Shown here one piece after another: positions 2,762 through 47,762 of a DNA stretch of 63,363 nucleotides (the stretch's first letter is position 1; every line of letters begins with the position of its first letter). A model generated the notes under the pieces. It ran no database searches and was not told where the DNA came from. It saw nothing but the letters and a program-made list of their open reading frames with translations. The translations under genes were made by a program, and so were the position numbers. The stretch spans positions 1 through 63,363 of the forward strand of contig JAKAKT010000009.1 in the NCBI GenBank assembly GCA_021813385.1, written 5' to 3'. The stretch is from Candidatus Micrarchaeota archaeon. Its GTDB lineage: Archaea; Micrarchaeota; Micrarchaeia; Burarchaeales; JAKAKT01.

Positions 2762-4135
2762 TCAGGGGAGAGACCGGCAAAGGTAAATCGCGAGCAGTTC
2801 GAGGTTTTCCTTGATGGCTATCTCTTCGCCTTTGAGGATTCTTGCTCGTGTGAATGTTTCTGCAAGGTGTTCGGGAATCCCGTAATTTCTCGGGTTTTTT
2901 ACTAGTTCCTTTAGTGCAGATTCCGGGCTCGTGTGCTTTCTCTTTTCCAGGGCAACGAGCCTGTCCCCTTCAATCCAAACCCCATGAGGCGATTTCGCGT
3001 GCTTTTCCACAAAATTTTCACAATCTACGGGTTGGAATGTCGGAGGCCCGGGCGCTTTCCTGACTGCAGGCAGGCAGCAGGAGCTAAACTCGAAAAGGAG
3101 CGCGCAGTGCTTTTCTTCGTCTGACCAGTGTGCGTGGCCCAAGAGAACGAACTCTTCGAGCTCGAGCTGCTTCGCTAGGTTCTTCTCTGCTCTCTTGAGT
3201 TGCGGCCAGAGTATGTCTGGGACAACTTCTGGGGCTTTGAAGAAGAGGCAGATGAAGGTACTTCCCCTTGACTCCATTAGCTCTTTCGCCTTCTGAAGAG
3301 AAAATGGTTTCTTTTCTGAGAAGAAGAACTCCTCCTTCGGCTTCTTGAGGAATTCCCTTGCTGAGTAGACGAGCCTGCTTACCGATGTCTTGGAGACAAC
3401 TGCGGAAACGTTCCGGTCCCTGTCAACCGGGTCCACTACAACGAGGGGGGCGAGGAATCTCCCAGCGAGCTCGTGCTCGCCATAATGCCTCTCGATATCG
3501 AGAACTATCTGGCCCTTCCACTGCTCAGCAGACTTGAGGAGCTGCTTGAACGAACCGTAGTATGTGATTAAGAGTTCGCAAAGGTAGCCTGAGAACCCTT
3601 CTGTCTTTAGCTCGGCCCCGTAAATGCCTATGTTCTTGAGGAACCGTTTCAGCAGCCTCACTTGGTCCTTCTGGGAAGGCGTTAGCTTCGAATTGATGTA
3701 TTGGGTGTGAAGGGGCGAGCGGTCCACTGAGGAAGCTCTCTCGTCTATGTGGGAAATCTTGAACGAAGGCACTATGTCAAGTTTCGAACCCTTGTAATTG
3801 GCACGGAGATAGGGGTGCTCGGCATAGCCAATATGCCATTTGTGCGGTTCCACTGCCTTTTTCGCCCAATCGAGGCCCATCACTTCGAGGTCCTTGAGTG
3901 AGTGCGAGAGCGGGAACAGAAGGAAAAGGTCGAAGTCCCTGTCGCCCCGCAGGTTCGTGTCCTTGGCTATCGAGCCGGCCATCATCACTTCTATGAAAGG
4001 CGGAACGACTTTTCTCAGCCTGGCCGTTATCTCTTCAACGAGTTTTTCCTCTTCTCGCTTCTCGGCCTGAGTCGGCTTTATTCTCGCAATCACCTTAGCA
4101 AGAACCGAATCAACCTCGTGCTCAAGGACGTACAT
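2762..4135 (-). CDS. cca: CCA-adding tRNA nucleotidyltransferase, archaeal class I
   Basis: 457 aa. N-terminal class I nucleotidyltransferase signature (MAGSIAKDTNLRGDRDFDLFLLFP) and a length typical of archaeal CCA enzymes. Confidence 0.9.
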   Translation of the reverse strand: MYVLEHEVDSVLAKVIARIKPTQAEKREEEKLVEEITARLRKVVPPFIEVMMAGSIAKDTNLRGDRDFDLFLLFPLSHSLKDLEVMGLDWAKKAVEPHKWHIGYAEHPYLRANYKGSKLDIVPSFKISHIDERASSVDRSPLHTQYINSKLTPSQKDQVRLLKRFLKNIGIYGAELKTEGFSGYLCELLITYYGSFKQLLKSAEQWKGQIVLDIERHYGEHELAGRFLAPLVVVDPVDRDRNVSAVVSKTSVSRLVYSAREFLKKPKEEFFFSEKKPFSLQKAKELMESRGSTFICLFFKAPEVVPDILWPQLKRAEKNLAKQLELEEFVLLGHAHWSDEEKHCALLFEFSSCCLPAVRKAPGPPTFQPVDCENFVEKHAKSPHGVWIEGDRLVALEKRKHTSPESALKELVKNPRNYGIPEHLAETFTRARILKGEEIAIKENLELLAIYLCRSLP

Positions 4136-9525: not shown

Positions 9526-9579
9526 CCCTAGGTTTCAAGCTCCTCCTGACCCCCTGACGACTTATCTTTGCTTGGTTCA

Positions 9580-9914: not shown

Positions 9915-10053
9915 CGCTTAATCTCCGTTATGGGGAGTAAATAAGGTTCTCTTTATTTACTCGGTTCCCATACTCCAGCTTTACTCGGCGAATTCTAGCC
10001 CGCTTTTTTAGTATCCTTGTTTACTCCTAGTTTCTTGTCCCGGGGTTTCTGGC

Positions 10054-16730: not shown

Positions 16731-17312
16731 TCATGGGTAGATATTCTGGAGCGTAGTCGAATAAGATGACGGGGTAGTGCCCTCAATCACAGTAGTTGAC
16801 CCGAACTCCGGTATCAGCTCGAACCTGAATTGGGAACGGGTCGGGAAATAGACTGTTGTTGCCGGGATTATGTTTATTTGAACGAGGGAGGATCCGTCGA
16901 TTACTGGAGTCTGAGGATTGAAGAGGTTAGTCGGGTCGCGAATTTCGGTGATATTGAAGAAATTGCCGGCGGCCGCAGATGTGCGGTTATATGTTAGAGT
17001 GCTCTGGTTGAAATTATTGCCAACCCTAACAACGAGGGTGCTCAGGTCGGTCCTGCTTGCACCTGCTGCTGCCGTAACGAATATTGTAAAGTTCTCGATG
17101 TTGGTCATGCCGGAGTTGGTAGTGCCGATGATGCTGGACACAAGAAGATTGCCTGAGACCTGGGAAATCGCTTCTTTCCCGGTCTTCATCGCCTTTTGCT
17201 GGAGAATCCCAGAGACGTTTATGAGAACTGCTGCTGCAATGGCGGCGACGAGAACCATTGCGATGAATATGATAAGCGTTCCTATGCCAACCGCACCCTT
17301 CTTGTTTGTCAA
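16731..17312 (-). CDS. Archaellin/type IV pilin-like protein with class III signal peptide
   Basis: The conserved N-terminus KKGAVGIGTLIIFIAMVLVAAIAAAVLINVSGILQQKA must be near the protein start. An in-frame TTG at 17312 gives M-TNKKG|AVGIG, with a TATA (TTTTTTATACC) 30-40 nt upstream. The track ORF extension to 17588 is judged non-coding for this gene. Confidence 0.7.
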   Translation of the reverse strand: MTNKKGAVGIGTLIIFIAMVLVAAIAAAVLINVSGILQQKAMKTGKEAISQVSGNLLVSSIIGTTNSGMTNIENFTIFVTAAAGASRTDLSTLVVRVGNNFNQSTLTYNRTSAAAGNFFNITEIRDPTNLFNPQTPVIDGSSLVQINIIPATTVYFPTRSQFRFELIPEFGSTTVIEGTTPSSYSTTLQNIYP

Positions 17313-17341
17313 ATTGTCACCAGGAATAATGTATATGGCTA

Positions 17342-17371
17342 GGTATAAAAAAGATTCAGTAGTATATATAC
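17342..17371. promoter_or_regulatory. Probable bidirectional TATA region
   Basis: GGTATAAAAAAG and GTATATATAC lie between the pilin start (17312, minus) and the small plus-strand ORF start (17385). Confidence 0.35.
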
Positions 17372-17384
17372 GTTGGGATTTGTT

Positions 17385-17597
17385 ATGGGTGAGGCGATAA
17401 GTGCAATTGGCAAGCTCGTTATAAGCATAATCGCTGCCGCCATAATAGCCGGGAGCGTCTACAACTCGTTCAACCTTTTCGGGCTCAACCGTTACTTGAA
17501 TTTCCCTTACTCGGTGGAAATCTGCGCTGGTTCGCTTGGGCTGCTTGTTTTGGTTATCGTTTACGCGCTTATGATGAGGCTCAAGCACCAGCTATAG
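17385..17597 (+). CDS. Possible small two-TM membrane protein (70 aa)
   Basis: ATG at 17385 within track ORF 17373..17597. Two hydrophobic helices (AISAIGKLVISIIAAAIIAGSVY and AGSLGLLVLVIVYALMM). Competes with the antisense pilin ORF extension. Confidence 0.35.
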   Translation: MGEAISAIGKLVISIIAAAIIAGSVYNSFNLFGLNRYLNFPYSVEICAGSLGLLVLVIVYALMMRLKHQL

Positions 17598-29600: not shown

Positions 29601-32600
29601 ATATGTTGTTCGCCGAGCGCAGATAGACTCCGCCCCCGGCTCCGCCGTTGCCTCCGTTGGCGTTGGTGTTGACCGAGGGAGTCGTCCCTCCGTTCCCCCC
29701 TGTTCCGCCAAAGACCTGGGAGATGCTCATCAGGAGCATCGAATTGTTCGCTGAGCCGCTGTCAGTTATGTAGATTGCGTAGGTTAATCCTCCGGCGCTC
29801 CCGTTCCCTCCGTATTTGAGTCCGGTCGCATTGCCGCCGTCCCCTCCGTTCCCGCCCGTCAGTCTTGTGAGCGTGTCGCTTGTGAATGTGGTGTTCAAGG
29901 AGTTGCTAATCAGATAAATCCCGTAAATACTCCCACCCACTCCGCCGTTGCAACCATTGCTGCTCGCTCCAGACCCGTTCCCGCCGGTCCCGCCTTTCCC
30001 GCCCGAAAGGTTTGAAATCGCATTGCTCGCAATCGAATTGTTTTTCGAGTTCGTGAGGCTGATTCCGTACAGCGAGTACCCGTCTCCCCCATTAGTGCAG
30101 GAAGCGCCATTGTTCCCACCGGTTCCAGCGACTCCGCTCGTGTTATAAATCGTGTTGCTGGTTATGAAACTGTTATTCGTGCCGGTGAAGAGGATGGCGG
30201 TCGTGTAGTTGCTTATGAGGCAGTTCTTTACTGTTATGTTATTCCTACCGCTCGCGAGAACCCCGTAGGCATTGGCCTGGGTGCCGGTTATCGTGTAGCC
30301 AGCGCAGTCCAAGGTGATGTTGTCCGCCCCGATTGTCATGCAGGTACTCGTAGTCGAAGCGATGCTGTTTGTGAGCGTCGTGTCTGAGTATATTGTAGCG
30401 CAACCGGAGTATAAGGAAAAGTTCAGCGTTAATGTGCCCGTGATATTGATATTTGTCGTATTGAAGAGAGACGAACTGCTCACGTTGATTGTGTGGTTGT
30501 TGAATGTGAAGTTTTGGCTCGGCCCCATATACATCTCAGTGACTGTTGCCCAGTTCGTGAGGCCATCGGAGCCGGTTAGGTTGTTCGCAATTACTTGCTT
30601 CCCATAGATATCTGAGATGTTCACGAGCGCGTTTTGGACGGGCGAGCCTGACGGGCCGGTAACGTTTACCCTCACATACCACTGGAGAGTTAGGTTGCTG
30701 GTCGCATCCAGGGTCACTTGTGATTTGTTGAAAGTCATGTTGAGGAATATGATGTTGTAGGCATTGTAAGAAACAAGGTTAAGCGCCGAGCCGTTTGTTA
30801 TCGTTGAGTTCTCGAAGCTGTTGTTGCGGATATACCCCGTGCTTCCATCGAAATACAGCGAAGCTGCCGCTGTTGTTATGGTGTTGTTCCAGAACCTGTT
30901 GTCGTATATGATCTGTTTCAGATGTATCCCATAAGCACTGCTTCCGGTTGTAGTTATGGAATTTGAATAAACCAAGCTGTTTGAAACTCCAATCCAGAGA
31001 TAAAGGCCGTCACTGCTTGAACTGTTTGTAGTGATGTTGTTGAAGGAAATCGCCGTGTTGTTGACTCCGCCGCTAGCTAAGTAAACACCAATGCTTGAAG
31101 TGCCGTTCGTGGAGATTCTGTTCGAGGTTATGTTATTGTTGGGTGAGGTCGAAGCAACATAAACGCCTTCGCTGCCTGATCCATAAGTGGTGATTGTGTT
31201 GTTTATCACGCTGTTATTGTTCGCATTGGTGAAGAAGACCCCGTGCTTGCTGCTTGTGCTTGTGTTTCCATCGATTAGGACGCAGTTTTGAACAGTCGTG
31301 CGGTTGTAGCCGGTATTGTTGACGCCGTACCTGGCATTGTTCGGGCCTGTCCCGTAGGTTATTGAAAATCCGTTGCAGTCAAGCGTGATATCATTCGCCA
31401 ATATCGTGAAGCAGGTATCGTTTGAGTTTACGTTGCTGTTCAATGTAGTGTTCGAGGTTAGGTTTCCGCAGATTGAGGGGGTTAGGGATACTTCGGCGTA
31501 TGAAGACACGTTGTAGGTCGAGTCCGAGCAGGTGAAGTTCGCGCCCCAGGTGTCATACCAGCTCAAGTTGCCCGATGAGATATTCGACGGATTCATGCTA
31601 ACATTCGAGCTGATTGTATTATTGCCCTGGAAATAGGGGGAAATTGTAAGATTATCGAACTCGTAGAAGAGCGCCTGCGCGTTGCTTGCGTCATCGAGAA
31701 GGAAGCCGATTGTGAACATGCTGTTCGCAATGTTTTGGTTCATGAACGATGCGTTCGTTGCGCTCCAGGCGTTCCAGGTGGTGGCGGGGATGTAGTTGGT
31801 CTTGTTGCTCAGGGAATTTGTCGTATTGCCGGCGCCACAGTTGGTGGTCTGGGAGAGGTTGTGGCAAGGAGTGACGTTGCCTGCCCAAATGTACGCAGTT
31901 ACATTGAGCGCCTGGGAGGTGTGATATCCTCTCCACCACCAGGAAATGTTGTAGGTCCCGGAGGAAAGCGGGAGTTTGAATGCCCGGTAAGCCCACAAGC
32001 TCCCTTGCCCGGTGTTGTCAGTGCGGGCGTGGAAATCCGGGGAAGGAACCCCGTCGCTTGAGTTCTGAGAGACAATCCATCCGCTTCCTGGGTCCGATGC
32101 GGTATACCTGTCCTCGGAGATCCCATACCAGCCATTCGTGCAGTTCGTGCAGAACGAGTTGCTCGGCGAGCAGGATGACCAGGAAGCGCATGTCCAGTTG
32201 CCATCAAACAGGTTTCGGAGGTTCCATAGGTAAGAAAGGTTCAGCGTCGGATTGTCCGGGTCGTTGCAGGTTACGTTCAGTTTGAGGGTGTCTGAAGTTA
32301 TTGGGGAAGTTGGGGTGATTCGCGTCTCTACGACTGTCGGAGTGAGGTTGAGGTTGTGGGTGATTTCCAGGTACGGGCCGTTCGCCAATCCGCACACATC
32401 GAAACCGCGTTCGTAGTCAGGGTCAAGGATGGATCCAATATCGAGGGAATTTTTATAAGCGGCACCGACTACTGGGTAGTAGTCTGGATGGTTTATCCTG
32501 ATTGTGAGGTTCTTCTCGCCTGCCCCGTATGCCGCCTTGGTGATGTTCGTGACGTTGATGCACATGTAGCCGCCTGGCGCGTCATAAAAACTGTAGGCAG

Positions 32601-34374
32601 TCGTAACGTTGTCATAAACCATTGCTTGATATTGTGAACCGGTTAATGACCAGGTAGTGGTCCAGCTTTGGTTCGTTATATGGGAGACGTTCGCCCTGTA
32701 GTCGAGAAGAGCAGGAAAGGTGTTGGGGTGAAGGCACAACGTGGAGTTCTGTATCGTTTCCCCGCTTGCAAGATTCGAAATGTCCCACTTGATTTGGATT
32801 TCTATAGGCCAGGACCCAGCATTTTGATAACCATACAGGTGAATTAGGCAGTAAGTATCCGTGAACTGCGTCGTCGGGTCTATTTCAATCGGGTAAACCG
32901 AGCGCATCAGCCATGAGAGCGGGACTGAAGTTGCGTAAAACGTCCTGCCGTTCCCCTGGAAAATCCCTGCCGGCATTGCCTTCGTGTCCGGGTATGGGAT
33001 TTCCCTCCCGTCAATAAGGGCTTTCGAGGAGTCCAAAGCGAGCGAAGGGAGGAAGGAATAGGCTTTCGAGCCGGACGAATCGAGGAAATCTATTTTTGAA
33101 AGAGTTTCCTCCCCGTTGGGAAGAGCAACCCCGTTTGCTGTGGGCGTTAAGCCATCGATGTCGACTTCAGACAAGAAATATATCGGGGTATCCTGGGGCA
33201 GGCCCAAGCCGGCAACAAGGGACCTGAACTCATCAGTTAATGTTATCGTTTCCTTGAACCTTCCGCTCTCGTAATCATATCTTATGTCGGTCCCTGTGAA
33301 TACTGTCGGGTATGTGACTGAGTTCTCATTCGGGATTCCAATTGAGGATGAAGAAATCTGTATATACGAGAGCCCGCCCCAGGAAGGGTCCTTGTATGCT
33401 ATTGCGAAAGGCTTCATCCCGAGCTTCTTGCCTCCCTTCTCTGCGAGCACAGGCCAAGCTGAACTGGCATCAGGTTTGAAATACGCTTTATAGGCTCCTT
33501 TCTCAACACCAGTCCGGTAGTCGCTGGAATAAAGCGGGTTGTCTTCGGGAAGTTCCACAATCGAGAGGTTGATTGGCGAGTATTCGGACCCGTTCCAATA
33601 GTCGGAAGAGGTCCCGTAGAAAGTATCTGTGTCGCTGTTGCCTTCGATTAATCTCCCATGGGCTTCTCCTACCGGAGTCACCTCTTTCTTCGCCCTTGCC
33701 GCATTTACTGTTTCTTTGGCAGGGCAAATGCTTGCATAGCGGCCCTTTACGCTCGTAACACCAAAAGGCGAGTAGAATGATGCATTCCAGGTCCCATTTG
33801 TGCAGGGAGTGACGTTATAGCGGAGGAGGAACGCCCTCTTTGCGCCCTCCTTGAAGGAGAAATGGGATTCGTCGACAGGAATCCATCTGTAGTAATCAAC
33901 TTCCTCTTCTGAGCCGTCCGCCTTCTTCTTCGCCTCATGACCGAAAAACGTCGATTGCCAGAGGGTTGCTTCCCGCGGGGCTTCAGAAAAACCAAGGGTA
34001 AAGTAAACCTTGAAGTCATTTATCTCGCCCGCAAGGTTCTCGAGGTTGAACTGGGATTCGCACTTCCCATCCTTGGAGCACAGGGCCAGTTTTTCATTGG
34101 AGGCAAAGAAACCGCTCTCCTTCTGCAGTTTCTTTGCTTCTGAGGTGTGGCTCGGGCTTATTTCCGGTCTCGCCTTCGGAAGCTCGGAGTATTTCGAGAT
34201 GTCGAGCTTGTGCCCTATGACCTGCGCATCTTTCAGGCTCGCCTTGAATTCAGCTGGAGCCCCCGCGTCAACCCCCACTTGGGCGGGGAGAGCGAGGAGT
34301 AATAGTAGGGAAAACGCTAAGCCTAACGGGAGAATTGCTATTATCCCACGTGAAACTGAATGCTTTTTTTGCAT
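17611..34374 (-). CDS. Giant (5,587 aa) modular, membrane-anchored surface protein, putative glycosylated adhesin
   Basis: Uninterrupted 16,764-nt ORF with an N-terminal signal-like hydrophobic segment. Six parallel-beta-helix-like modules are followed by about nine tandem Ig-like units, PKD/cadherin-like units, a Cys-rich region and about four further Ig-like domains. One C-terminal TM (about 17806-17860) precedes a K/E/R-rich tail. N-x-S/T sequons occur throughout. Confidence 0.9.
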   Translation of the reverse strand: MQKKHSVSRGIIAILPLGLAFSLLLLLALPAQVGVDAGAPAEFKASLKDAQVIGHKLDISKYSELPKARPEISPSHTSEAKKLQKESGFFASNEKLALCSKDGKCESQFNLENLAGEINDFKVYFTLGFSEAPREATLWQSTFFGHEAKKKADGSEEEVDYYRWIPVDESHFSFKEGAKRAFLLRYNVTPCTNGTWNASFYSPFGVTSVKGRYASICPAKETVNAARAKKEVTPVGEAHGRLIEGNSDTDTFYGTSSDYWNGSEYSPINLSIVELPEDNPLYSSDYRTGVEKGAYKAYFKPDASSAWPVLAEKGGKKLGMKPFAIAYKDPSWGGLSYIQISSSSIGIPNENSVTYPTVFTGTDIRYDYESGRFKETITLTDEFRSLVAGLGLPQDTPIYFLSEVDIDGLTPTANGVALPNGEETLSKIDFLDSSGSKAYSFLPSLALDSSKALIDGREIPYPDTKAMPAGIFQGNGRTFYATSVPLSWLMRSVYPIEIDPTTQFTDTYCLIHLYGYQNAGSWPIEIQIKWDISNLASGETIQNSTLCLHPNTFPALLDYRANVSHITNQSWTTTWSLTGSQYQAMVYDNVTTAYSFYDAPGGYMCINVTNITKAAYGAGEKNLTIRINHPDYYPVVGAAYKNSLDIGSILDPDYERGFDVCGLANGPYLEITHNLNLTPTVVETRITPTSPITSDTLKLNVTCNDPDNPTLNLSYLWNLRNLFDGNWTCASWSSCSPSNSFCTNCTNGWYGISEDRYTASDPGSGWIVSQNSSDGVPSPDFHARTDNTGQGSLWAYRAFKLPLSSGTYNISWWWRGYHTSQALNVTAYIWAGNVTPCHNLSQTTNCGAGNTTNSLSNKTNYIPATTWNAWSATNASFMNQNIANSMFTIGFLLDDASNAQALFYEFDNLTISPYFQGNNTISSNVSMNPSNISSGNLSWYDTWGANFTCSDSTYNVSSYAEVSLTPSICGNLTSNTTLNSNVNSNDTCFTILANDITLDCNGFSITYGTGPNNARYGVNNTGYNRTTVQNCVLIDGNTSTSSKHGVFFTNANNNSVINNTITTYGSGSEGVYVASTSPNNNITSNRISTNGTSSIGVYLASGGVNNTAISFNNITTNSSSSDGLYLWIGVSNSLVYSNSITTTGSSAYGIHLKQIIYDNRFWNNTITTAAASLYFDGSTGYIRNNSFENSTITNGSALNLVSYNAYNIIFLNMTFNKSQVTLDATSNLTLQWYVRVNVTGPSGSPVQNALVNISDIYGKQVIANNLTGSDGLTNWATVTEMYMGPSQNFTFNNHTINVSSSSLFNTTNINITGTLTLNFSLYSGCATIYSDTTLTNSIASTTSTCMTIGADNITLDCAGYTITGTQANAYGVLASGRNNITVKNCLISNYTTAILFTGTNNSFITSNTIYNTSGVAGTGGNNGASCTNGGDGYSLYGISLTNSKNNSIASNAISNLSGGKGGTGGNGSGASSNGCNGGVGGSIYGIYLISNSLNTTFTSDTLTRLTGGNGGDGGNATGLKYGGNGSAGGLTYAIYITDSGSANNSMLLMSISQVFGGTGGNGGTTPSVNTNANGGNGGAGGGVYLRSANNIFTGSINNVTGGSGGTAGDCGDIGSGTGGAGGDSFGFNVSATNANATIENATLSYFTAGNGGDPTACSSTAGIGGTSYVVTAAGRYGVIKTSTLTNSTRGNPGSTGLAYGNGYGVYLTGASTTDYNMSNSTISQTSTSDIYLDGSSQNNTILNSTFNTSKVGFGTCSPCNLTVQWYLRVYATNVSPIQGAIVNISDAYGKQLMIDNLTGSNGYTNWAIANEMIMNKSGSVLQNFSFNNHMINVSFSQFQTKTNNVTSTKTITFTQYDCGVLTQSLYTGVDIYYNDTCFTFGADNITLDCGSKGIVGNHTLGTYAIYAPGRTNITIKDCYPINYSAGIMLSGTNRSSIRGFGCPWRNFYGAYLSDSHNNTLNTSGCQVYLNQIGAYLNSSSGNNFSDLTFFYNNYDVILESSNSNQFINEFFDYQNYSIYLNASSSNVIENSSFASTYVREITSNQTSLNNIIRGPPQYGYSGPSTFAWGSGTNNLTLQHYLRVNATYYLGGPVSGALVNITDAYGKQIMVQSVTNSSGLTNFTLINITYMNSTNNFTFNNYTINVSKAGAFNSSSLNVTSSQTYNASLYLSECLQVSVNTTLLSNLASNGTCVTFSADNVALDCAGHRITGNDSADAGYGIYAEGRKNITIKNCIVSDYQRSVYFNSTNSSLLSNNTLNSSGSGLTIESSSLNNVFNNSFIGNVDNLEFASSSNWNTINTSSFASATSYDAVNTDVSTDDIIFNCTSFNRNNILLLSGNLSFAWPVRINFTDKFGDQLGAGGSFQINETNGRTIYSGSSTPNPTAYYSITEETQNSVQSFNYNNHTFYASWADGSSNLTVYNITGMTQVNLTIPTTDCKSVYHNTTLSSDVTAQTGSTCFTMAADNIFLDCSGHTITGTTSLNAYAVYMSGRSNITIKNCIITQFINSIWAQNSQNLSFLNNTIHDCGYGSSSIYSNAIGINLISCSLVNITNHTDWNIVTSVPTGQFADKGGFAYGIYANTVDSLLISNYSGRNHSGTLVTTIVNPAGNDHESRHYTLSEAIGESIGAISSNALEQDIRHYGAYLDETSVFLGSGRRAYLQGGDTYVYRGYGLYFTYVSNSSVSKVSLKNMSNGYGIHTVYPCAANLSFQNIDVNVSNIGFRINCPVNITGLSVDDYNGTGIYLESLSSGTNVTNFNITRGNGTTSALYALQSDLDPPPENNTFQNGKIQNATYGLRFSSTNWNLLQNISINSTSYGIYSLNSRSNRLYNITSDRAIYGIYMQNSNNTNFTDSIIHHSSVTTDVIRSMTNSVNNIFLNTTANYSNVSWAGTDDFLVQWFMRVNVTSSSGTALQNALVNISDINGMPAMVVNLTNSNGLTGFVVVNDTNYSSSGNFALNNQTINATLTGYLINTTSANITSTSTTNLTLYQMPGTICSQVSANTTLVSDVTSSGTCFNITAHNVFLDCNGHIVTYDTGSVNGRYGVNNTGYDNVTIKNCIFSEGNVSTSSSYAIAIQTGADNNTVENNTIYTYGSSSYGIYASIGGFHNIYSNKVVTNGTTASAIYLTRTNSSSVYSNNLTANSSGGGIFAVTVIYNNSLYSNNINASGGGTGITFSTTGSNNSAYLNTILSSSGYGAYVYRNMYNTSVYSNTITTTGGSAFGMYLARSVTDTALTNNTITTAATSVYLDANFGAVTRAIFANSTITNGSATNFYAVGPDFGLPSVYDNIFLNMTFNISNVVIGTTDINNLTIQWYARVNVTNSAGSPLQNAIVNISDILGFSNMTDNLTNPGGLTNYVIVTEMVMNGSTNVSYTNHTINASLANYAINSTSMNITSSSTVNLTLYAGDNLPPSVTITAPSANQNVSGPTLINATVTDANPDASKVYYWLSNTTGNVTPWIQMSNTTATSFNATFITTALSDGYYNVTINATDLYSNTNATEYVTIRIDNTAPVVTFVPLTPANNTNLSQSWVYVNVTTNEETVSAIVDWNGTYYAMTQGSSTNWYRNMTGLSNGSYAYRVYVNDSVNNTGSTGTMNVTIDTSAPAITFVTPTPPNDSNLSQNWAYINITSNEPIISAVINWNGTFYSLTQSSSTNWFRNMTVLGNGTYTYNVSANDTINNTGISETRNLTIDTVSPVITFVTPTPPNNSNLSQNWAYVNITTSEYAVSVLINWNGTWYQFSQLNPTSWYRNMTSLSEGTYDYYVQANDSANNTGTSSTQNLTIDTTQPALTLVSPTHNNESVNYAWSYVNLSSNENLANATLNWNGTDYPMGGSGINWYLNRTGLGDGNYSFFANASDFASNTNTTETRWVLIDTIGPIITFVSMTPGPDSTTSRDWVFVNVTTNERVDNASVYWNGTSYYLLNSSPTNWYFNITGLANGTYVYNVSANDTLGNNGTSLTQNVTVDTSAPMLTFVFPTNNDEFINYNWSYVNMTSDKALDNATLNWNGTDYSMQNTSSIEWYLNMSNLADGNYSFQARGNDSLNNLGYSETRWVLVDTVNPIPTFVYPTPSDNANLSTNWAYINVSANERIISALLDWNGTFYSMSQLNSTVWYRNMTSLGDGICSYTAHVNDSANNSGNIGPRTVRIDTITPTVSFVPPTPSNNSNQVSNSVFLNVSISEAAISCLVQNSSGFYAMSQLNSTVWYATMAPLSYSTNHSFTVYCNDTVNNTGSSGPLWVTVDIAPSVSNTQICANDTCSPVPISRGSSLNCSANVTDDFNSSIDVYFKWFVNGSYSSGYDSIRYAVPNATFAYAASPIPAAAVNKSDTWGCEARPYDGLQFGSALNSSTVTVNNTAPSIGAPSINNTSPINTSTISCDNGTFSDADGDQPGMGYWRWFWNGSVLGGQTSQSLSLLAIGAQATDQIICEHMSEDSGYDPKNSTRQNSTTVTLTTSSAPIPNNATLCKGTACLPIGSAIYLNDSLNCSANITDAENSTILQVNFTFYRNSTAYSVVSLDNVPNASISYPNSFPPGALRKSDTWICEVSAYDGEYSSNRINGSVAATVNNTAPWVTAPSINDTSPYTDSVLLCNNGSFSDADNDSEGSRVWGWFLNGTVIPGQISQTLDLSQAGAGNRGDTINCSQDSSDTGWDSKYSLENISTSVTIINTPPSTAVSISPSPAAQGSDVTCSALATDADGDSINFTYIWWNGVTQVATTFTNSTTFLLAGANTTNGETWTCQVTPFDGFANGTATNASVNIQAAPAGCPPNCPHPTPSLSASISGNCVNQTSTITISSDSGPVPGVSIKILRQGVLWQIVETGFTDAAGRYVFTPNETGQYEVQASLFGYNPTTARFTIGYCGTCGICDGTCPGPSCYGSDPDCDPLGLAIGGNACPGGGLCCGGSCKSVCTSQKDCSDGDTCTIDSCSGSNCSAICAHAPITSCLSKDGCCPAGCTSLNDSDCSPTCSPTCKGDVPGKSCQQYACVLGDCIESLKPDCCGNSICEPSAGESNTNCPTDCLLSCGNGFCDAQENKCNCPSDCGSCSGKCAGDCTQFKCTPDGCSCTTIPNCCGNGACEKPENFFTCSTDCPPEFLSLRIYSPSFGQDFLRGDRMHLAVKVFAEFVPAANAIVSASGFFGKVILYDDGMHGDGAPGDGLYGAYVDISSWVPYGPQAISFDARVGDSNGKRSSVILITNNLALNMVLDTPTLELGDTVFISGNVSGGSDDTEHEVLLDLSAYDSDISKQSKRTKGDFDFAYRTSFLDSAGNWIATITVIDDDNNTRMVSKLIAVEEPVPEKFLSVEYLSPVPGAYLKGQDVPITIKVTDAGNPITGAQAKAYGPKHKAFPLEEVGDGVYSSTYKISLDDPSGIWELQSRVYKTENGVLHGGAASTVVAITDVPIKLVITEPAKQDYSIGETLPINVLASYSEEKPADNIVLLVRLKDRSITARQVERGVYGSSLELDPGLQGANTMIIFARDPYENYGIAQVPLKVQGYSPWYYIKLYWIPIIAILLVALSVSAYYLQLVRKREKLRKLLEQKQEIVEKQRRVQSDYFVERSMDRGSFDQLSQKYDEELRKVEREMERLK
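21655..24150 (-). repeat. Tandem array of about nine ~92-95-aa Ig-like units inside the giant ORF
   Basis: Recurrent unit boundary (I/V)D(T/N)xxPxx(T/S)FVxPTPxNxSNLSQxW.Y(V/I)N(V/I)T...WNGT.Y...W(Y/F)(R/L)NM(T/S).L..G.Y.Y. Boundaries seen near 23850, 23570, 23290, 23010, 22740, 22460, 22190 and 21910. Coordinates are approximate. Confidence 0.7.
24150..31490 (-). repeat. Six large beta-helix modules (about 260-560 aa each) inside the giant ORF
   Basis: Each module opens with C-x-T-x-x-A-D/H-N-(I/V)-x-L-D-C-x-G-x-x-I-T and N-(I/V)-T-(I/V)-K-N-C. Each closes with NLT(L/V/I)QW(Y/F).RVN(V/A)T...(A)(L/I)VNI(S/T)D..G. Module starts lie near 31480, 30395, 28800, 27850, 27060 and 25385 (approximate). 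Confidence 0.65.
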
Positions 34375-40195: not shown

Positions 40196-40218
40196 AAAAA
40201 ATTGGTCGAAAAATAAAA

Positions 40219-40371
40219 TGGGCCCGCGGTGAATTGAACACCGAATCTCCACCTGTCAGAAACCCCGAACGGAAAAAACGCGTGAGGTTTTGTAAGGGTG
40301 GCGTCTTAACCGTTGTCGGCTTTGCCGACAAGTTTTCGACACTTGTGGCGAAAGCATTCGACTACGGGCCC
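40219..40371 (-). tRNA. tRNA-Val (anticodon UAC) with two introns (D-loop ~40313-40356; anticodon loop ~40255-40290)
   Basis: Exons assemble to GGGCCCG-TA-GTCG-AACGGTTA-AGAC-G-CCACC-CTTACAA-GGTGG-AGATT-CGGTG-TTCAATT-CACCG-CGGGCCC-A, 73 nt. The locus is 153 nt. Splice junctions are uncertain by 1-2 nt. Confidence 0.8.
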
Positions 40372-41796
40372 CTATCCAACCTCTCTATTATCTGAACTTC
40401 CCTTTTTATAATGATAGTCGCTCATCTCGGCCTTGAACCAGCTTCCGTACTTGTCGTTGATTTGCTCCTCGACTCCCTTGCCTTTTATTGCCGCGACTTT
40501 CATGTGCTCTTCAGTTATGAACTGCGCTCCCTCGAGGGCAGCAATATCGCCGGCGAGCTTGATGATGCCTGAGAGGTCGCGAAGCCGCAGCGTCAGCCCA
40601 CTCGTATCATCGATTAGCTTAGCCCTCCTCTTCGCCTCTTGAATCAGGATCTCGATTGCCTCATGGGTCGCGTGGGGGATTTTCCCGTCCTTTCGTATCT
40701 CTTGCGAGGCGAATCGCGCGAGCGCATCCCTGTTCTCCTCCGTGTCAGGCATCACCGTGCTCATCAGCACTTCATAGCCATTCCCGGTTATCCTTGAGCG
40801 GAGGGGTGGGAGGAGCTTCGGCAAATCCGCAGTGTTGATTGCTCCAACAAATAGGAAATCACAGGGCACGTGCTCAACTTTCACAGCCGCCCCGGTGCTC
40901 GAGGGGTTCCTGCCCGCGATGGAGAATCTTTTCTCCTGCATGGCAGTGAGGAGGTATCTCTGCAGATAGCCGAGGGTCGAGAGCTCGTCGATGAACAAGA
41001 CCCCCTCGTGCGCCTCGTGGATTGCGCCCGGCACCACACGCTGGTATGGGGGAATTCCTGCTTCGGGATGCCCCCCGTATGGGTCGTGCTTTATGTCCCC
41101 GAGCAATTCGGTTTCGCTTGCCCCAGTCGCCTGAACAAACGGGTTTCTGTGCAGCGGCACTATTATTTTCCTCGGCCTCGCGAATGCGCCGTATTCGAGC
41201 CCCTTGAGCGAGTCCTTGTCATAGGAGACAATCTTCCCGTCCTTTGTCCTTTCGTAAATGACTAATTCCTCTTTCCCGTTCGGGAATGTCCTCGTCGTAT
41301 GGACCCTGTCCTCGAGAACTTCAGCCTGGAAACCGAAAAGCAAATCGTCGAAGGGCGTTGATTCTTTCCTGTACTTGTCTGAGCCGCACGATGGGCATGC
41401 GTGTATGTTGTGGGGGGAAAGCGCCCCACATCTCCTGCACCGGAAGCCGAGCCTCTCAGCGACGAAAACAGGCACCTGTGACGGCGAGTGGGACTTTCCT
41501 GCATCCTTCTTTTTCTTGAATGTCTTCTCTATCGAATCCTTCTCCCTCACCTCGACAATTGGCCGTTCTGGGTTGTTGGGGTTGTGTATGACCGATATTT
41601 CCTGCTGTGGCCTTGGAAGAAGGACAGAAATCGCCTGAGCGACCATGCTTTTCCCGGTTCCGGGCGGGCCTACAAGGAGCATGTTCCTGCGCTGGCGCGC
41701 GACGACGCGCGCAATCCTCACGGCCTCTTCCTGCCCTATTATCGTCTTGAGCGGGTCTTCGGGCAGCGGGATGTCTGCAGTGGTCGTGAAACGCAT
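40372..41796 (-). CDS. LonB-like AAA+ ATPase without protease domain, with a zinc-ribbon insertion
   Basis: Walker A GPPGTGKS, Walker B/sensor region GVLFIDEL and LonB-type PCDFLFVGAIN...LRSRITGNGYEV. CRRCG-x10-CPSCG is inserted where LonB carries its TM hairpin. The ORF ends after the alpha-helical lid. ATG 41796 (MRFTTTADIPLPE) is preferred over the track start. Confidence 0.75.
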   Translation of the reverse strand: MRFTTTADIPLPEDPLKTIIGQEEAVRIARVVARQRRNMLLVGPPGTGKSMVAQAISVLLPRPQQEISVIHNPNNPERPIVEVREKDSIEKTFKKKKDAGKSHSPSQVPVFVAERLGFRCRRCGALSPHNIHACPSCGSDKYRKESTPFDDLLFGFQAEVLEDRVHTTRTFPNGKEELVIYERTKDGKIVSYDKDSLKGLEYGAFARPRKIIVPLHRNPFVQATGASETELLGDIKHDPYGGHPEAGIPPYQRVVPGAIHEAHEGVLFIDELSTLGYLQRYLLTAMQEKRFSIAGRNPSSTGAAVKVEHVPCDFLFVGAINTADLPKLLPPLRSRITGNGYEVLMSTVMPDTEENRDALARFASQEIRKDGKIPHATHEAIEILIQEAKRRAKLIDDTSGLTLRLRDLSGIIKLAGDIAALEGAQFITEEHMKVAAIKGKGVEEQINDKYGSWFKAEMSDYHYKKGSSDNREVG

Positions 41797-44698: not shown

Positions 44699-46165
44699 CT
44701 AGTTGTCTAGTGAAGAGGCTACGATGCTTTCTATGGGCGCACGGTCATCTGTCAGGACGAGGCCCGGTTCTATGGTGCCTGAATAGGGGCCTGGGCCATT
44801 TCCCTCCGGAAAAAACTGCGCCCGGAGTTCTGAAAGCTTCTCCTCGTCAAGTTTCGTCTCGTCAGTTGCAAAAAATACTACGTTCTGGACCTCTTCCGGC
44901 TTTTCTGGATTGGTCAGAAAAACGTAGAGTTCTGGGAAGACTTGGGAGTAGGTTGAAACGATTGCGCAAAAAACCCCAGAGCGGCTTCCCTTTGCTGCTG
45001 AGATTACGTTCACTGCGACTACTCCTCCGGGCTTAAGTTTTGCCTTCATTCTTTCGACAGCCTCGACTGTCGTAAGATGGTATGGCATCGAATGCCGGGA
45101 TGCATAAGCATCAACAAAAATGATGTCATAGTTAGAGTTCTCATCGCTGTTCAGGAAGACCCGCGCATCCTGTGCGAATATCCTGGTCCTGCCCGGGATT
45201 TCCGGAAAACCGAAGTATTTTTTAGCGACCTCGACGACTGCCGGGTCTATCTCGATTGCATCAACCGATGCATCGGTATTCTCGAGAAAGTAGCGGCCTA
45301 TCGTGCCTCCTCCCATTCCGACGAGCAGCACCTTGCCCGGATTTGGCACGAACGCCAGTGAGAACGGGAAGACCCGGACGTAGTGATAAAGGTAGTCATT
45401 CGTGCCCAAGTGCATGGCGCTCTGCATATCGGAATCCAGCGCAAGCGTACGCGTAGAGTTTGCATCTCCAACTATTATGTGATAGTATTCCGAATCCGAC
45501 TGGAAAAGTGGAGGCTCTTTTGTTGCAAAAAGCATGTTTGGCGCCCAAAGCGCGATTATAAGAAGGGCGGCAAAAAAAGCAAAGACCATACGGCTTCTCA
45601 AGAACATTAGGCCGGTTGCCATCACCAGTGAAGCAGTGAGCAAAAGCGTCGCCTTAATCCCAAAGTTTGGAATCAGGAAGAAGCCTGCGAGCAGTGTGCC
45701 GGTTATGCTTCCAATAGTGGAAAAAGCATACAAGGAGCCTGCAACCCCGCCAACCTTTTCGACCTCTTTTGCTTTTAGCCTTATGGCAAATGGAGAGACG
45801 AGCCCAAACAGAAAAGACGCTGGTGAAAAAAGGATGAGTGACGCAACTAGCGGCCCATATTTTGCCCCCATTGGGACGCCCAGGTACATTGCAACCGGGA
45901 CTAGCGCCTGGATGAAAACCACTGAAGCCCCGCACAGGAGGACAACCGCGAAATATGTCTTCTCGCTCGGGCCTCTGTCTGAGAGCCTTCCCCCGTACCA
46001 ATATCCTGCGCTGAGGGAGCCGAGGATGACTGCTATGATGCTTGCCCAGGAATATAGCGATACACCGAGGTAGGGAGCGATTATCCTGCTCCCAGCAATC
46101 TCGACAATCATTAGGGCTGCTCCGCAAACAAAGACAGAAAACTCGAGGCGCCCGAACCCTTTCAT
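44699..46165 (-). CDS. Membrane-fused spermidine synthase-like methyltransferase-fold protein
   Basis: An N-terminal domain of about 7 TM helices is followed by a spermidine-synthase-like domain (VLLVGMGGGT, AIEIDPAVVEVAKKYF, YDIIFVDAY). Confidence 0.7.
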   Translation of the reverse strand: MKGFGRLEFSVFVCGAALMIVEIAGSRIIAPYLGVSLYSWASIIAVILGSLSAGYWYGGRLSDRGPSEKTYFAVVLLCGASVVFIQALVPVAMYLGVPMGAKYGPLVASLILFSPASFLFGLVSPFAIRLKAKEVEKVGGVAGSLYAFSTIGSITGTLLAGFFLIPNFGIKATLLLTASLVMATGLMFLRSRMVFAFFAALLIIALWAPNMLFATKEPPLFQSDSEYYHIIVGDANSTRTLALDSDMQSAMHLGTNDYLYHYVRVFPFSLAFVPNPGKVLLVGMGGGTIGRYFLENTDASVDAIEIDPAVVEVAKKYFGFPEIPGRTRIFAQDARVFLNSDENSNYDIIFVDAYASRHSMPYHLTTVEAVERMKAKLKPGGVVAVNVISAAKGSRSGVFCAIVSTYSQVFPELYVFLTNPEKPEEVQNVVFFATDETKLDEEKLSELRAQFFPEGNGPGPYSGTIEPGLVLTDDRAPIESIVASSLDN

Positions 46166-46271
46166 GAACTATAGTCTAATTCCGAACTCTTATATTGTTA
46201 GCGCTGGCGGATGTGGTTAATATCTCGAAATCTCGGTACGTTTTTCTTGTTTCGAGTGACCTGTAACATAT

Positions 46272-47762
46272 TCATTTCGGGACCATGAAGTAGAGCCCCT
46301 CGGTTTCCGATTCAACCTTGTAGTGCTCCCAAATATACTTGTCTATTAACGGCTCGTACTCGCTGAAGTTCTTTCCCCACTGCGGGAGTTTCGAGTATAT
46401 GACAATTTTCGGCTTCCTTTGCCCTAAGTCGAGAACAGCATTCGGCTCTACATCATCCGGCTGGCCCCAGGGCCCAAGGCCCAGATAACGGTAACCTGGT
46501 TCCCGCTTGAGCAGAAGGTAGTTGATGTGCCCGTAAGGGGTGATTAGAATTGTGTCGCTGGGAGTTGTTCGCAAGAGGACGAATCCGCGGATATTGTCAA
46601 GGTCAGTGCCCCTTGTCGACGCAACCCAAAGGGCGGTGAGGAGAGCAAGGGCAAACAAGACTCCAAAGCCGCAGATGAACCGCCTCTGGCTCTTGTCGAG
46701 GTACTTCACAAACAGGGTCCCACCCATGATTGAGAGCAGCGGGAGCGCATGGAAAACCCTGTTCGGCTGGAATCGAACGACAACGGCGTACATTGCGCCG
46801 AGGGCGAGGAGCAGGAGGAGCAGGCTCGCCCTCTTGCCTTTCCTCAAGTCTTCCCGGGCAACCCAGATATACGCCGCAGGAATTACGAGGATGATGAGAT
46901 TTATCGCAAGGTCGAACGGGTCTGACAGCAGCCGTTCATTTGTCTTAAAGAGAATCTGGACCACTACTTGGATGTATGCGTCTCCGAGGGCGCCTAAGGA
47001 GGATAGCCAAGCCAAAACGAGAATCAACGGAATTGAAAACCCGAAAAGAATTTCCCCGCATTCCAAGAGGACTCGAACGGGTTTCCCTTTTGTTAGGAAA
47101 AATCTCGCAATGATGAATGCGAGGGAAACGAGCAGGAGCGCGAGCCCGGGTATTTTGAGGAGAACGAGGATTCCGCAAACGATTCCGGATGAAAAAAGCC
47201 ATTTTGCCTCTCCTTCTTTATCGAAGTGATAAAGGCAAATGAAAAGCAGAAGAACGAGCGGGGCCATCAGCGGCTCTGGCAAAAATATCAGGCTCCCGAA
47301 AGCCGGGGCGAGCAGGACAAAAGCGAATGATGCCGCAATCGCCTCTTCTTCGCCGTATAGTTTCCGGGCCAGGTAGAACGTCATGAAAGTTGTGAGGAGC
47401 ATCGCTGCAGCGAGGAAAAGCCTGGCTGAACTCAGTTCAGGCCCGAGAAGCGCGTATGAGGATGCGGCTATGAGCGAAGTCCCTGGAAGGTATTGGAGAA
47501 GGGCGAATTCCTTGTAAGGAATCCTTCCCTTGTAGAGGAGCCACCCCCCCGTAACATGCGTGCCCTCGTCATTCATGAAAAAAACATTCAAGCTGAGCAG
47601 ATGGCATGCCAGTTGGAAAGCGAGCAGTATCGCAAGCGTTTGGGTTGCTGTCAATTTCACGCTTATGTTTGGAGCTTCATCCCATAAAAACTTTTCACTC
47701 GAGGAGAAATCGGCAACGACCCTTGCCGGGTGCACCCGCCGCTCTTCGCTGTCGGGGAACAA
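46272..47762 (-). CDS. GT-C fold glycosyltransferase (family 39/ArnT/PMT-like)
   Basis: 496 aa and polytopic. The first extracytoplasmic loop carries an acidic motif (MNDEGTHVTGGW). The C-terminal domain is soluble. The call rests on architecture, not on a search. Confidence 0.55.
   Translation of the reverse strand: MFPDSEERRVHPARVVADFSSSEKFLWDEAPNISVKLTATQTLAILLAFQLACHLLSLNVFFMNDEGTHVTGGWLLYKGRIPYKEFALLQYLPGTSLIAASSYALLGPELSSARLFLAAAMLLTTFMTFYLARKLYGEEEAIAASFAFVLLAPAFGSLIFLPEPLMAPLVLLLFICLYHFDKEGEAKWLFSSGIVCGILVLLKIPGLALLLVSLAFIIARFFLTKGKPVRVLLECGEILFGFSIPLILVLAWLSSLGALGDAYIQVVVQILFKTNERLLSDPFDLAINLIILVIPAAYIWVAREDLRKGKRASLLLLLLALGAMYAVVVRFQPNRVFHALPLLSIMGGTLFVKYLDKSQRRFICGFGVLFALALLTALWVASTRGTDLDNIRGFVLLRTTPSDTILITPYGHINYLLLKREPGYRYLGLGPWGQPDDVEPNAVLDLGQRKPKIVIYSKLPQWGKNFSEYEPLIDKYIWEHYKVESETEGLYFMVPK

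What the first reader, a model, noticed from the sequence alone, without database searches (positions are those of the whole stretch)
40219..40371. tRNA-Val(UAC) gene with two introns, one in the D-loop
The 153-nt minus-strand locus gives a normal 73-nt cloverleaf only after two inserts are removed: GGGCCCG-TA-GTCG-AA[44 nt]CGGTTA-AGAC-G-CCACC-CTTACA[36 nt]A-GGTGG-AGATT-CGGTG-TTCAATT-CACCG-CGGGCCC-A.
- **Insert 1 (about 40313-40356)** lies at about position 15/16, which is non-canonical. It has bulge-helix-bulge-like geometry: exon GTCG pairs with intron CGAC over 4 bp, flanked by 3-nt bulges AAT and AAC, followed by the inner helix GCTTT/AAAGC.
- **Insert 2 (about 40255-40290)** lies at or near the canonical 37/38 site. 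I could not draw a strict 3-4-3 motif for it.

The gene starts on the base after the TAG of the Lon-like ORF, so co-transcription and processing out of an mRNA is likely. Multi-intron tRNAs with non-canonical positions are documented mainly in Thermoproteales and some ultrasmall archaea.
Basis: partly seen in the sequence, partly recalled or inferred. Interest (0 to 1): 0.65.

Follow-up and report, generated by a model that had tools for sequence, protein, structure and literature searches.

The report
Two-intron tRNA-Val gene in a Micrarchaeote
The locus is a real valine tRNA gene (anticodon UAC) of an acid-mine-drainage Micrarchaeota archaeon, interrupted by one intron in the D-loop and one beside the anticodon; this is correct but expected, because this archaeal group is already known for tRNA genes broken up in this way.

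Summary
Window 40219-40371 (minus strand, 153 nt) gives a 73-nt tRNA-Val(UAC) only after a 44-nt insert (40313-40356, between tRNA positions 15 and 16) and a 36-nt insert (40255-40290, between 37 and 38) are removed.

Evidence:
- ARAGORN calls the spliced sequence tRNA-Val(UAC).
- Relatives with the same upstream AAA+ gene carry the same tRNA with each insert present or absent. One relative's spliced product is identical to the window's, 73 of 73 bases, although its introns differ.
- 30 spliced or intron-free homologues form a cloverleaf with compensatory changes.
- 24 same-site D-loop introns keep the 4-bp helix, the two 3-nt bulges and an inner helix that shows compensatory changes.

Both junctions are relaxed bulge-helix-bulge motifs, not strict ones. 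The organism is a Micrarchaeota (ARMAN-like) archaeon. That group is documented to have multi-intron, non-canonical tRNA genes and a broad-specificity epsilon2 splicing endonuclease.

Weak points:
- No RNA data cover the locus.
- No EndA gene lies in the window.

Verdict: a new member of a known kind, of modest interest.

The parts
40219..40371 (-). Whole tRNA-Val(UAC) gene, a 153-nt precursor body. The 3'-terminal CCA is not encoded.
   Evidence: ARAGORN with the intron option reports the same ends.
40357..40371 (-). Exon 1 (tRNA positions 1-15): acceptor 5' strand GGGCCCG, U8 A9, D-stem 5' strand GUCG, A14 A15.
   Evidence: Identical or near-identical in homologues.
40313..40356 (-). Intron 1, 44 nt, in the D-loop between positions 15 and 16. 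The 5' bulge is A14 A15|U. The inner helix h' is GCUUU (40351-40355) with AAAGC (40319-40323), extended by GCC/GGC and ACAAGU/ACUUGU. The central helix H pairs intron CGAC (40315-40318) with exon GUCG (40359-40362). The 3' bulge is A A|C16.
   Evidence: Fold. Across 24 same-site introns H is 100% paired and h' 85.8% paired, with all 5 h' pairs showing changes on both sides. L124, L125 and the intron-free L008, L014, L034 and L083 lack this intron.
40291..40312 (-). Exon 2 (positions 16-37): the rest of the D-loop CGGUUA, D-stem 3' strand AGAC, G26, anticodon-stem 5' strand CCACC, and loop CUUACA holding anticodon UAC.
40255..40290 (-). Intron 2, 36 nt, at the canonical 37/38 site. The 5' bulge is C36 A37|A. 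The inner helix h' is AACCUC (40284-40289) with GGGGUU (40261-40266). The 3' strand of H is UCUG (40257-40260), facing C32 U33 U34 A35, and only the two outer pairs form. The 3' bulge is A C|A38.
   Evidence: Constrained fold. Homologous introns in L122, L004 and L124 share the 3' end GGGUU(C/U)UGAY, and their h' helices show compensatory changes. The intron is absent in L001, L002, L123, L125 and L006.
40219..40254 (-). Exon 3 (positions 38-73): A38, anticodon-stem 3' strand GGUGG, variable loop AGAUU, T arm CGGUG-UUCAAUU-CACCG, acceptor 3' strand CGGGCCC, discriminator A73.
40404..40411 (-). TATA-like box TTATAAAA, 40 to 33 nt upstream of the mature 5' end, inside the last codons of the upstream ORF. 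It is the probable promoter of the tRNA gene itself (inferred).
   Evidence: This octamer occurs only 4 times on both strands of the 63-kb window. It is conserved in L001, L002, L004 and L122-L124. tRNA-Thr and the relatives' tRNA-Val genes have a similar A/T box at about -40 to -27.
40209..40218 (-). T-rich tract TTTTATTTTT directly after the discriminator base. It is the probable archaeal oligo-T terminator (inferred).
   Evidence: Sequence.
40372..41796 (-). Its stop codon TAG at 40372-40374 abuts tRNA base 1. It serves as the synteny anchor for finding homologous tRNA loci.
2762..4135 (-). CCA-adding enzyme gene elsewhere in the window. The enzyme is needed because the tRNA gene does not encode CCA. 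The link to this tRNA is inferred.
   Evidence: Pfam matches to tRNA_NucTransf2 (2.4e-43) and CAA_C (1.2e-27).

Best explanation
This is a functional tRNA-Val(UAC) gene of a Micrarchaeota (DPANN, ARMAN-like) archaeon, interrupted by two protein-spliced archaeal introns.

Proposed pathway:
1. The gene is transcribed, most likely from its own TATA box inside the 3' end of the upstream AAA+ gene, and transcription ends at the oligo-T tract.
2. In the precursor, the D-stem 5' strand G10-U11-C12-G13 pairs with the intronic CGAC instead of with its mature partner AGAC. This forms a 4-bp helix flanked by two 3-nt bulges and closed on the intron side by a long helix.
3. The anticodon-loop intron forms the same 3-4-3 spacing between the anticodon stem and an intronic 6-7-bp helix, but its central helix has only two Watson-Crick pairs.
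4. The archaeal splicing endonuclease cuts between the second and third nucleotide of each bulge, which places the cuts at 15/16 and 37/38.
5. An RNA ligase (RtcB type) joins the three exons, the D-stem refolds, RNase P trims the 5' leader, and the CCA-adding enzyme completes the 3' end.

Both motifs are relaxed rather than strict, so the enzyme must have broad specificity, as the epsilon2 endonuclease of ARMAN-1/2 does.

Status of the steps:
- Shown here: gene structure, exon boundaries, motif geometry, and conservation with compensatory changes.
- Inferred: actual cleavage and ligation, the endonuclease type, and promoter use.
For: - In-silico splicing gives a 73-nt sequence that ARAGORN calls tRNA-Val(UAC).
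- Natural intron-free alleles exist for each site among loci syntenic with the AAA+ gene. The D-loop intron is absent in L124, L125, L007, L008, L014, L034 and L083. The 37/38 intron is absent in L001, L002, L123, L125 and L006.
- The spliced L122 is identical to the spliced window (73/73), while its AAA+ protein is only 84% identical and its introns differ in length and sequence.
- For 30 spliced or intron-free homologues, 94.7% of cloverleaf cells are paired and 12 pairs show changes on both sides. Slid controls give 34-49%.
- The tertiary 15:48 pair supports the 15/16 cut: A-U 17, G-C 7, G-U 1, other 5.
- For 24 D-loop introns at the same site, h' is 85.8% paired, all 5 pairs show changes on both sides, and slid controls give 25-50%. 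The metagenome search pattern did not constrain these columns.
- The precursor's minimum-free-energy fold contains the D-loop motif.
- Intron 2 has the canonical spacing, and its h' shows compensatory changes in four homologues.
- The organism is a Micrarchaeote from mine drainage.
- Published work reports ARMAN-1/2 and Mancarchaeum with an epsilon2 EndA that cleaves relaxed motifs and with many non-canonical and multiple introns (PMC3239211, PMC4033280, PMC5829648). Cleavage lies between the 2nd and 3rd bulge nucleotides (PMC12397907). Excision of a D-loop intron has been shown in Aeropyrum pernix (PMC3241643).
Against: - There is no RNA evidence. The three metatranscriptome runs of the same study hold nothing from this locus.
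- No splicing endonuclease or RtcB gene was found in the window, so the enzyme type is assumed from relatives.
- The D-loop motif lacks the outer helix h.
- The central helix of the 37/38 motif has two pyrimidine-pyrimidine mismatches, and cleavage of exactly these shapes has not been tested.
- By sequence alone the D-loop splice site could be 13/14, 14/15 or 15/16. All three give the same mature RNA in the window.
Confidence: 0.9

Rival explanations
1. The gene is a tRNA-Lys(UUU) with a single 61-nt intron and a long variable arm, as ARAGORN's intron mode models it.
For: ARAGORN with the intron option reports tRNA-Lys(ttt) i(33,61) at exactly 40219-40371.
Against: - ARAGORN allows only one intron, and only in the anticodon loop.
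- The model has a poor D arm and a 21-nt extra arm, which a Lys tRNA does not have.
- Removing the D-loop insert turns the call into a clean Val(UAC).
- All homologues, including the intron-free ones, are Val(UAC) with the same anticodon arm CCACC-CUUACAA-GGUGG.
Confidence: 0.01
2. The locus is a decaying tRNA pseudogene that has accumulated two insertions which are never removed.
For: Default tRNA finders and Rfam do not see it. There is no RNA evidence.
Against: - The exons stay identical or change by compensatory substitutions across relatives whose flanking protein is 65-88% identical, while the inserts vary freely.
- The inserts keep a splice-motif geometry with compensatory changes.
- The gene keeps a TATA-like box and an oligo-T terminator.
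Confidence: 0.04
3. The tRNA has no promoter of its own and is cut out of the 3' end of the AAA+ ATPase mRNA.
For: tRNA base 1 directly follows the stop codon. The spacing is 0-4 nt in L001, L002, L004 and L122-L124.
Against: - TTATAAAA lies at -40 to -33, and this octamer is rare in the window (4 occurrences on both strands).
- It sits at about the distance of the A/T box upstream of tRNA-Thr and of tRNA-Val genes that are not adjacent to an ORF (L006, L125, L007, L008, L083).
- The two routes do not exclude each other.
Confidence: 0.15
4. The inserts are self-splicing (group I or II) introns or mobile-element insertions, not endonuclease-type introns.
For: None specific. tRNA genes in Bacteria can carry group I introns at 37/38.
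Against: - The inserts are 36 and 44 nt, far too short for such introns.
- No Rfam intron family matches, even at E up to 10.
- The junctions show bulge-helix-bulge spacing.
- The host is an archaeon.
Confidence: 0.005

Closest known systems
Disrupted tRNA genes of ARMAN-1/2 (Candidatus Micrarchaeum acidiphilum), processed by the epsilon2 splicing endonuclease (Fujishima et al. 2011, PMC3239211; Hirata et al. 2012, PMC3488258; PMC12397907)
   Same: - Same phylum-level group and same habitat (acid mine drainage).
[quoted passage not shown]
- Relaxed bulge-helix-bulge junctions that need a broad-specificity enzyme.
- CCA is not encoded.
   Different: - The published examples are Cys(GCA) at 59/60, Pro(GGG) at 53/54 plus 59/60, and Ile(UAU) at 37/38.
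- I could not see the supplementary tRNA table, so I cannot say whether a Val(UAC) with a 15/16 intron is listed there.
- The window's organism is not shown to be ARMAN-2, and its EndA was not seen.
Multi-intron tRNAs of Thermoproteales (Sugahara et al. 2007, 2008; reviewed in PMC4090602 and PMC4033280)
   Same: - Up to three introns per gene, at canonical and non-canonical sites.
- HBh'/hBH relaxed motifs.
- Rapid gain and loss between close relatives.
- Similar intron sequences recur in different tRNA genes.
   Different: - A different superphylum (TACK) and a different enzyme type, (alpha-beta)2 with the Crenarchaea-specific loop.
- The non-canonical positions listed in the review I could read (3/4, 20/21, 22/23, 25/26, 29/30, 30/31, 45/46, 53/54, 56/57, 59/60, 'etc.') do not name 15/16.
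Aeropyrum pernix pre-tRNA-Thr(UGU) with a D-loop intron (Hirata et al. 2011, PMC3241643)
   Same: The intron is in the D-loop. In that system it was shown experimentally to be removed by the splicing endonuclease alone, more slowly than an anticodon-loop intron.
   Different: That intron is described as a canonical BHB placed in the D-loop and cut by an (alpha-beta)2 enzyme. Here the outer helix is missing, and the central helix borrows the D-stem 5' strand.

Membership tests
tRNA-Val(UAC) | A cloverleaf with a 7-bp acceptor stem, D, anticodon and T arms, a 7-nt anticodon loop with U33 and anticodon UAC, and homology to uninterrupted tRNA-Val genes. | tested here: met
   ARAGORN calls the spliced sequence Val(tac), 73 nt. 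It aligns with the intron-free tRNA-Val(UAC) of L008, L014, L034 and L083 at a mean column identity of 84%. The acceptor, anticodon and T stems are 100% paired, with compensatory changes.
Archaeal endonuclease-spliced (BHB-type) tRNA intron | Removing the insert restores a collinear mature tRNA, and relatives carry the same gene without the insert. | tested here: met
   Each site has intron-free alleles, and the spliced L122 equals the spliced window 73/73.
Archaeal endonuclease-spliced (BHB-type) tRNA intron | Both splice sites lie in 3-nt bulges separated by a 4-bp helix, with the cut after the 2nd bulge nucleotide. | tested here: met
   Intron 1: GUCG/CGAC with bulges AA|U and AA|C. Intron 2: the 3-4-3 spacing is present, but the central helix CUUA/UCUG forms only its two outer pairs. 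The cut position follows PMC12397907.
Strict hBHBh' motif (the substrate class of alpha4 and alpha'2 endonucleases) | Two flanking helices h and h' of at least 2 bp plus a fully paired 4-bp central helix. | tested here: not met
   Intron 1 has no outer helix h; U8-A9 on one side and G18-G19 on the other cannot pair. Intron 2 has h and h', but its central helix has two pyrimidine-pyrimidine mismatches, and these are conserved in L004, L122 and L124.
Archaeal endonuclease-spliced (BHB-type) tRNA intron | The genome encodes a splicing endonuclease able to cut relaxed motifs (epsilon2, or a type with a specificity loop). | not testable with these tools
   No EndA domain was found in the 48 window ORFs scanned. 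There was no PDB match for three unassigned ORFs. The rest of the genome is not available.
Archaeal endonuclease-spliced (BHB-type) tRNA intron | The spliced mature RNA is observed. | not testable with these tools
   Only assembled metatranscriptome contigs of the same study exist, and none covers the locus.
Split or permuted tRNA gene | The exons are encoded at separate loci or in permuted order. | tested here: not met
   The three exons are contiguous and collinear within 153 nt.
Group I or group II self-splicing intron | A ribozyme core of hundreds of nucleotides. | tested here: not met
   The inserts are 44 and 36 nt. No Rfam match was found at E up to 10.

The most novel reading that the evidence does not exclude
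The 15/16 D-loop intron may be more than a one-off. It could be an old intron family specific to Micrarchaeota valine tRNAs.

- I found it at the same site in tRNA-Val with anticodons UAC, CAC and GAC, and in one Val-like tRNA carrying alanine identity (L118).
- 8 of 28 copies share a 3' sequence block, TTGYCRGC...GCCGRCAA.
- Introns at 15/16, 37/38 and the T arm come and go between relatives whose exons stay identical.

If so, this clade would be a second natural system, outside Thermoproteales, for studying tRNA-intron gain, loss and possible transposition. It could also bear on integration at tRNA genes, since small att-like duplications of the tRNA 3' end occur in L002 and L123.
Probability: 0.3. 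Interest if true: 0.5.

Novelty: new member of a known kind. Interest (0 to 1): 0.3.

Why it matters
- **Annotation.** Default tRNA finders and Rfam miss this gene, so genomes of this group look as if they lack tRNA-Val(UAC). One paper (PMC5829648) notes that incomplete tRNA sets in DPANN point to hidden disrupted genes, and this locus is a worked example.
- **Substrates for testing.** The set of natural variants gathered here has the same exons with the three intron sites filled or empty. These are ready-made substrates for testing how far the specificity of the epsilon2-type endonuclease reaches. Two shapes are of particular interest: a D-loop motif without an outer helix, and a 37/38 motif with a mismatched central helix.
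- **Limits.** It does not change what is known about tRNA splicing.

Tried and rejected
- **Default finders.** Default ARAGORN and Rfam at gathering thresholds find only tRNA-Thr in the window. A permissive Rfam scan of the locus gives only chance-level hits.
- **ARAGORN Lys(UUU) model.** Rejected as an artefact of the single-intron limit.
- **Other low-threshold ARAGORN candidates** (9434-9598, 22454-22641, 46137-46299, 46686-46809, 61061-61227). These are weak models, and several lie inside long ORFs. I did not pursue them. My own scan for a 7-bp acceptor stem plus a contiguous T arm found no further convincing hidden tRNA.
- **RNA evidence.** Three metatranscriptome runs of the same study hold nothing of the locus.
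- **EndA in the window.** Not found.
- **Protein-anchored scan of the genome collection.** It did yield the intron-free alleles.
- **Metagenome pattern scan.** 12 of 35 hits were GC-rich chance matches and were discarded.
- **C/D-box guide RNA in the introns.** By eye there is no C box. The conserved CUGA of intron 2 is explained by the splice motif.
- **Papers not held in the library.** Marck and Grosjean 2003 and Sugahara 2007 could not be read, and the ARMAN-2 supplementary tRNA table is not held. I therefore could not establish whether a 15/16 intron has been catalogued before.

Full report
**What is at the locus**

The TAG of the upstream ORF is at 40374-40372, and tRNA base 1 is at 40371.

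- Default ARAGORN and Rfam report only a tRNA-Thr(GGU) at 7299-7370 in the whole window. A permissive Rfam scan of the locus finds only chance-level hits.
- ARAGORN with its intron option finds a gene with exactly these ends. It allows only one intron, in the anticodon loop, so it forces a tRNA-Lys(UUU) model with a 61-nt intron and a 21-nt extra arm.
- When both inserts are removed, ARAGORN calls a clean 73-nt tRNA-Val(UAC). When only the 44-nt insert is removed, it calls Val(UAC) with a 36-nt intron at 37/38.

**Organism**

DNA runs that hold this stretch are mine-drainage metagenomes. The upstream ORF is an AAA+ ATPase whose product is 474 aa. Pfam matches the Mg_chelatase, AAA and Sigma54-activator ATPase domains and no Lon protease domain. 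Its homologues that carry an organism name are almost all from Candidatus Micrarchaeota, and some sources name the family 'Lon protease'. The window is therefore from a DPANN, ARMAN-like archaeon.

**Comparative evidence that the inserts are introns**

The AAA+ gene followed by tRNA-Val(UAC) is a conserved arrangement, which allowed me to fetch the homologous locus from relatives. The table gives intron lengths in nt at each site.

| Locus (AAA+ identity to window) | D-loop 15/16 | Anticodon loop 37/38 | T arm |
|---|---|---|---|
| Window | 44 | 36 | none |
| L001 (88%) | 27 | none | 33 |
| L122 (84%) | 28 | 33 | none |
| L002 (81%) | 19 | none | about 45 |
| L123 (78%) | 26 | none | none |
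| L004 (74%) | 31 | 78 | none |
| L124 (72%) | none | 77 | none |
| L125 (66%) | none | none | 30 |
| L006 (65%) | 39 | none | 28 |
| L007, Burarchaeum (61%) | none | 53 | none |
| L008, L014, L034, L083 | none | none | none |

- Every insert therefore has natural intron-free alleles. The uninterrupted D-loops read GTCGA(A/G)TGG..AAGAC, which is what splicing predicts.
- The spliced L122 sequence is identical to the spliced window sequence at 73 of 73 positions, although the introns differ in length and sequence.
- For 30 spliced or intron-free homologues, 94.7% of cloverleaf cells are paired. The acceptor, anticodon and T stems are 100% paired, and 12 pairs show changes on both sides. With the partner slid by 1-3 columns, only 34-49% pair.

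**The D-loop junction**

- In the minimum-free-energy fold of the precursor (z = -4.66), exon G10-U11-C12-G13 pairs with intronic CGAC. The 3-nt bulges A14 A15 U and A A C16 flank this 4-bp helix. The intron closes it with GCUUU/AAAGC, extended by GCC/GGC and ACAAGU/ACUUGU.
- The ARMAN-2 endonuclease structure shows the cut between the second and third bulge nucleotide (PMC12397907). Applied here, that rule gives exactly the 15/16 junction.
- By sequence alone 13/14, 14/15 and 15/16 would give the same mature RNA in the window. In homologues where exon nucleotide 15 is G, position 48 is usually C. Over all 30 sequences the 15:48 pair is A-U 17, G-C 7, G-U 1, other 5, which favours 15/16.
- One metagenome scan used a pattern that fixed only the exon and the CGRCAR-YGGT end. 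It returned 35 hits: 23 were tRNAs with an intron at this same site, and 12 were GC-rich chance matches.
- All 26 intron-bearing sequences compared up to that point (the window, L001, L002, L004, L006 and 21 distinct complete metagenome hits) are called tRNAs by ARAGORN after in-silico splicing. They comprise 25 Val (anticodons UAC, CAC and GAC) and one Ala(CGC).
- In 24 of these, the five intron pairs next to the bulges are 85.8% paired, and all five show changes on both sides. Slid controls give 25-50%. The search pattern did not constrain these columns.
- There is no outer helix, so the motif is of the relaxed HBh' type rather than a strict hBHBh'.

**The anticodon-loop junction**

Between the anticodon stem and the intronic helix AACCUC/GGGGUU there are seven nucleotides on each strand, which is the canonical 3-4-3 spacing. 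The bulges are C36 A37|A and A C|A38. The central helix is C32 U33 U34 A35 against UCUG, and only its two outer pairs form.

The homologous introns of L122, L004 and L124 keep U(C/U)UG-A(C/U) at the 3' end and have different, compensating inner helices.

**Transcription**

- The octamer TTATAAAA lies 40 to 33 nt upstream of base 1, inside the last codons of the AAA+ gene. It occurs four times on both strands of the 63-kb window.
- It is kept in the six closest relatives.
- A similar A/T box lies at about -40 to -27 upstream of the window's tRNA-Thr, and upstream of tRNA-Val genes in relatives where the tRNA is not adjacent to an ORF.
- TTTTATTTTT follows the discriminator base.
- An own promoter with a short leader is therefore the simpler reading. 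Read-through from the ORF is possible but not required.

**Enzymes**

CCA is not encoded, and a CCA-adding enzyme gene is in the window at 2762-4135. No EndA or RtcB gene was found among the window's ORFs. The proposal of an epsilon2-type, broad-specificity endonuclease rests on the literature for ARMAN-1/2 and Mancarchaeum (PMC3239211, PMC5829648), not on this sequence.

**RNA data**

The only RNA runs of the same study are small metatranscriptome assemblies. They hold nothing of this locus.

**Comparison with what is known**

- Multiple and non-canonical tRNA introns are documented for ARMAN-1 and ARMAN-2 (PMC3239211; PMC4033280, Table 1) and for Thermoproteales (PMC4090602).
- A D-loop intron is excised by the endonuclease alone in Aeropyrum pernix (PMC3241643).
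- PMC5829648 notes that DPANN tRNA sets are incomplete and that hidden disrupted genes are expected.

The finding is therefore a correct, well-supported new example of a known kind. I could not read the ARMAN-2 supplementary tRNA table or the older catalogues of intron positions, so I cannot say whether this exact gene architecture has been listed before.

**Verdict**

- Novelty is low and interest is modest.
- The residual interest lies in two points: the same-site D-loop intron is widespread in valine tRNAs of this group, and the three intron sites turn over quickly between close relatives.

Noticed in passing
window 17611-34374 (-): A single open reading frame of 5587 aa. It lies next to an ORF with an archaeal flagellin/pilin domain (16731-17588, Pfam Arch_flagellin, 1e-30). 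The giant ORF itself was not scanned.
   Followed up: no
window 1541-7370: A cluster of tRNA-related genes: an AlaX-like editing protein (1541-2752), the CCA-adding enzyme (2762-4135), a D-aminoacyl-tRNA deacylase (5937-6746) and tRNA-Thr(GGU) (7299-7370). A TnpB/OrfB_IS605 gene (4266-5384) sits among them.
   Followed up: partly
window 9344-10053: A 710-nt stretch without an ORF of 80 aa or more. It lies next to an ORF (8486-9343) with a weak match to the phage-integrase SAM-like domain. There is no Rfam match, and only a sub-threshold ARAGORN model at 9434-9598.
   Followed up: partly
L002 about 4590-4760 (also L003); L123 about 2225-2350: A second copy of the tRNA-Val 3' end (TTCGATTCACCGCGGGCCCA) lies 110-170 nt downstream of the gene. 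The two copies flank a short element that begins TTCCGAACC and holds a G6/C6 hairpin. The same element start follows the tRNA in L124. This looks like att-type direct repeats of a small insertion at the tRNA 3' end.
   Followed up: no
L118 6225-6340 (-): A tRNA whose body and D-loop intron are Val-like, but which has anticodon CGC and a G3:U70 pair, so it has alanine identity. This may be a tRNA gene recruited from Val to Ala.
   Followed up: no
L001, L002, L006, L125, L092, L094, L104 (T-arm region of each tRNA): Relatives carry a third kind of intron, 28-45 nt, in the T loop or T stem at about 59/60 to 61/62. It is absent from the window gene. L097 has an insert in the variable region with a 10-nt exon duplication.
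   Followed up: partly
window 40313-40331 and 7 other D-loop introns (L006, L090, L091, L092, L109, L116, L118): 8 of 28 D-loop introns share a 3' block, TTGYCRGC...GCCGRCAA, whose halves are inverted repeats. In the window this alternative hairpin is predicted to be less stable than the splice-competent fold (-16.0 against -20.9 kcal/mol). The block may mark a homologous intron subfamily.
   Followed up: partly
window 40357 (tRNA position 15) and 40244 (position 48): This tRNA has A15 paired with U48 instead of the usual archaeal G15-C48. From general knowledge, it therefore lacks the G15 that is normally converted to archaeosine. Homologues switch between A15-U48 and G15-C48.
   Followed up: no
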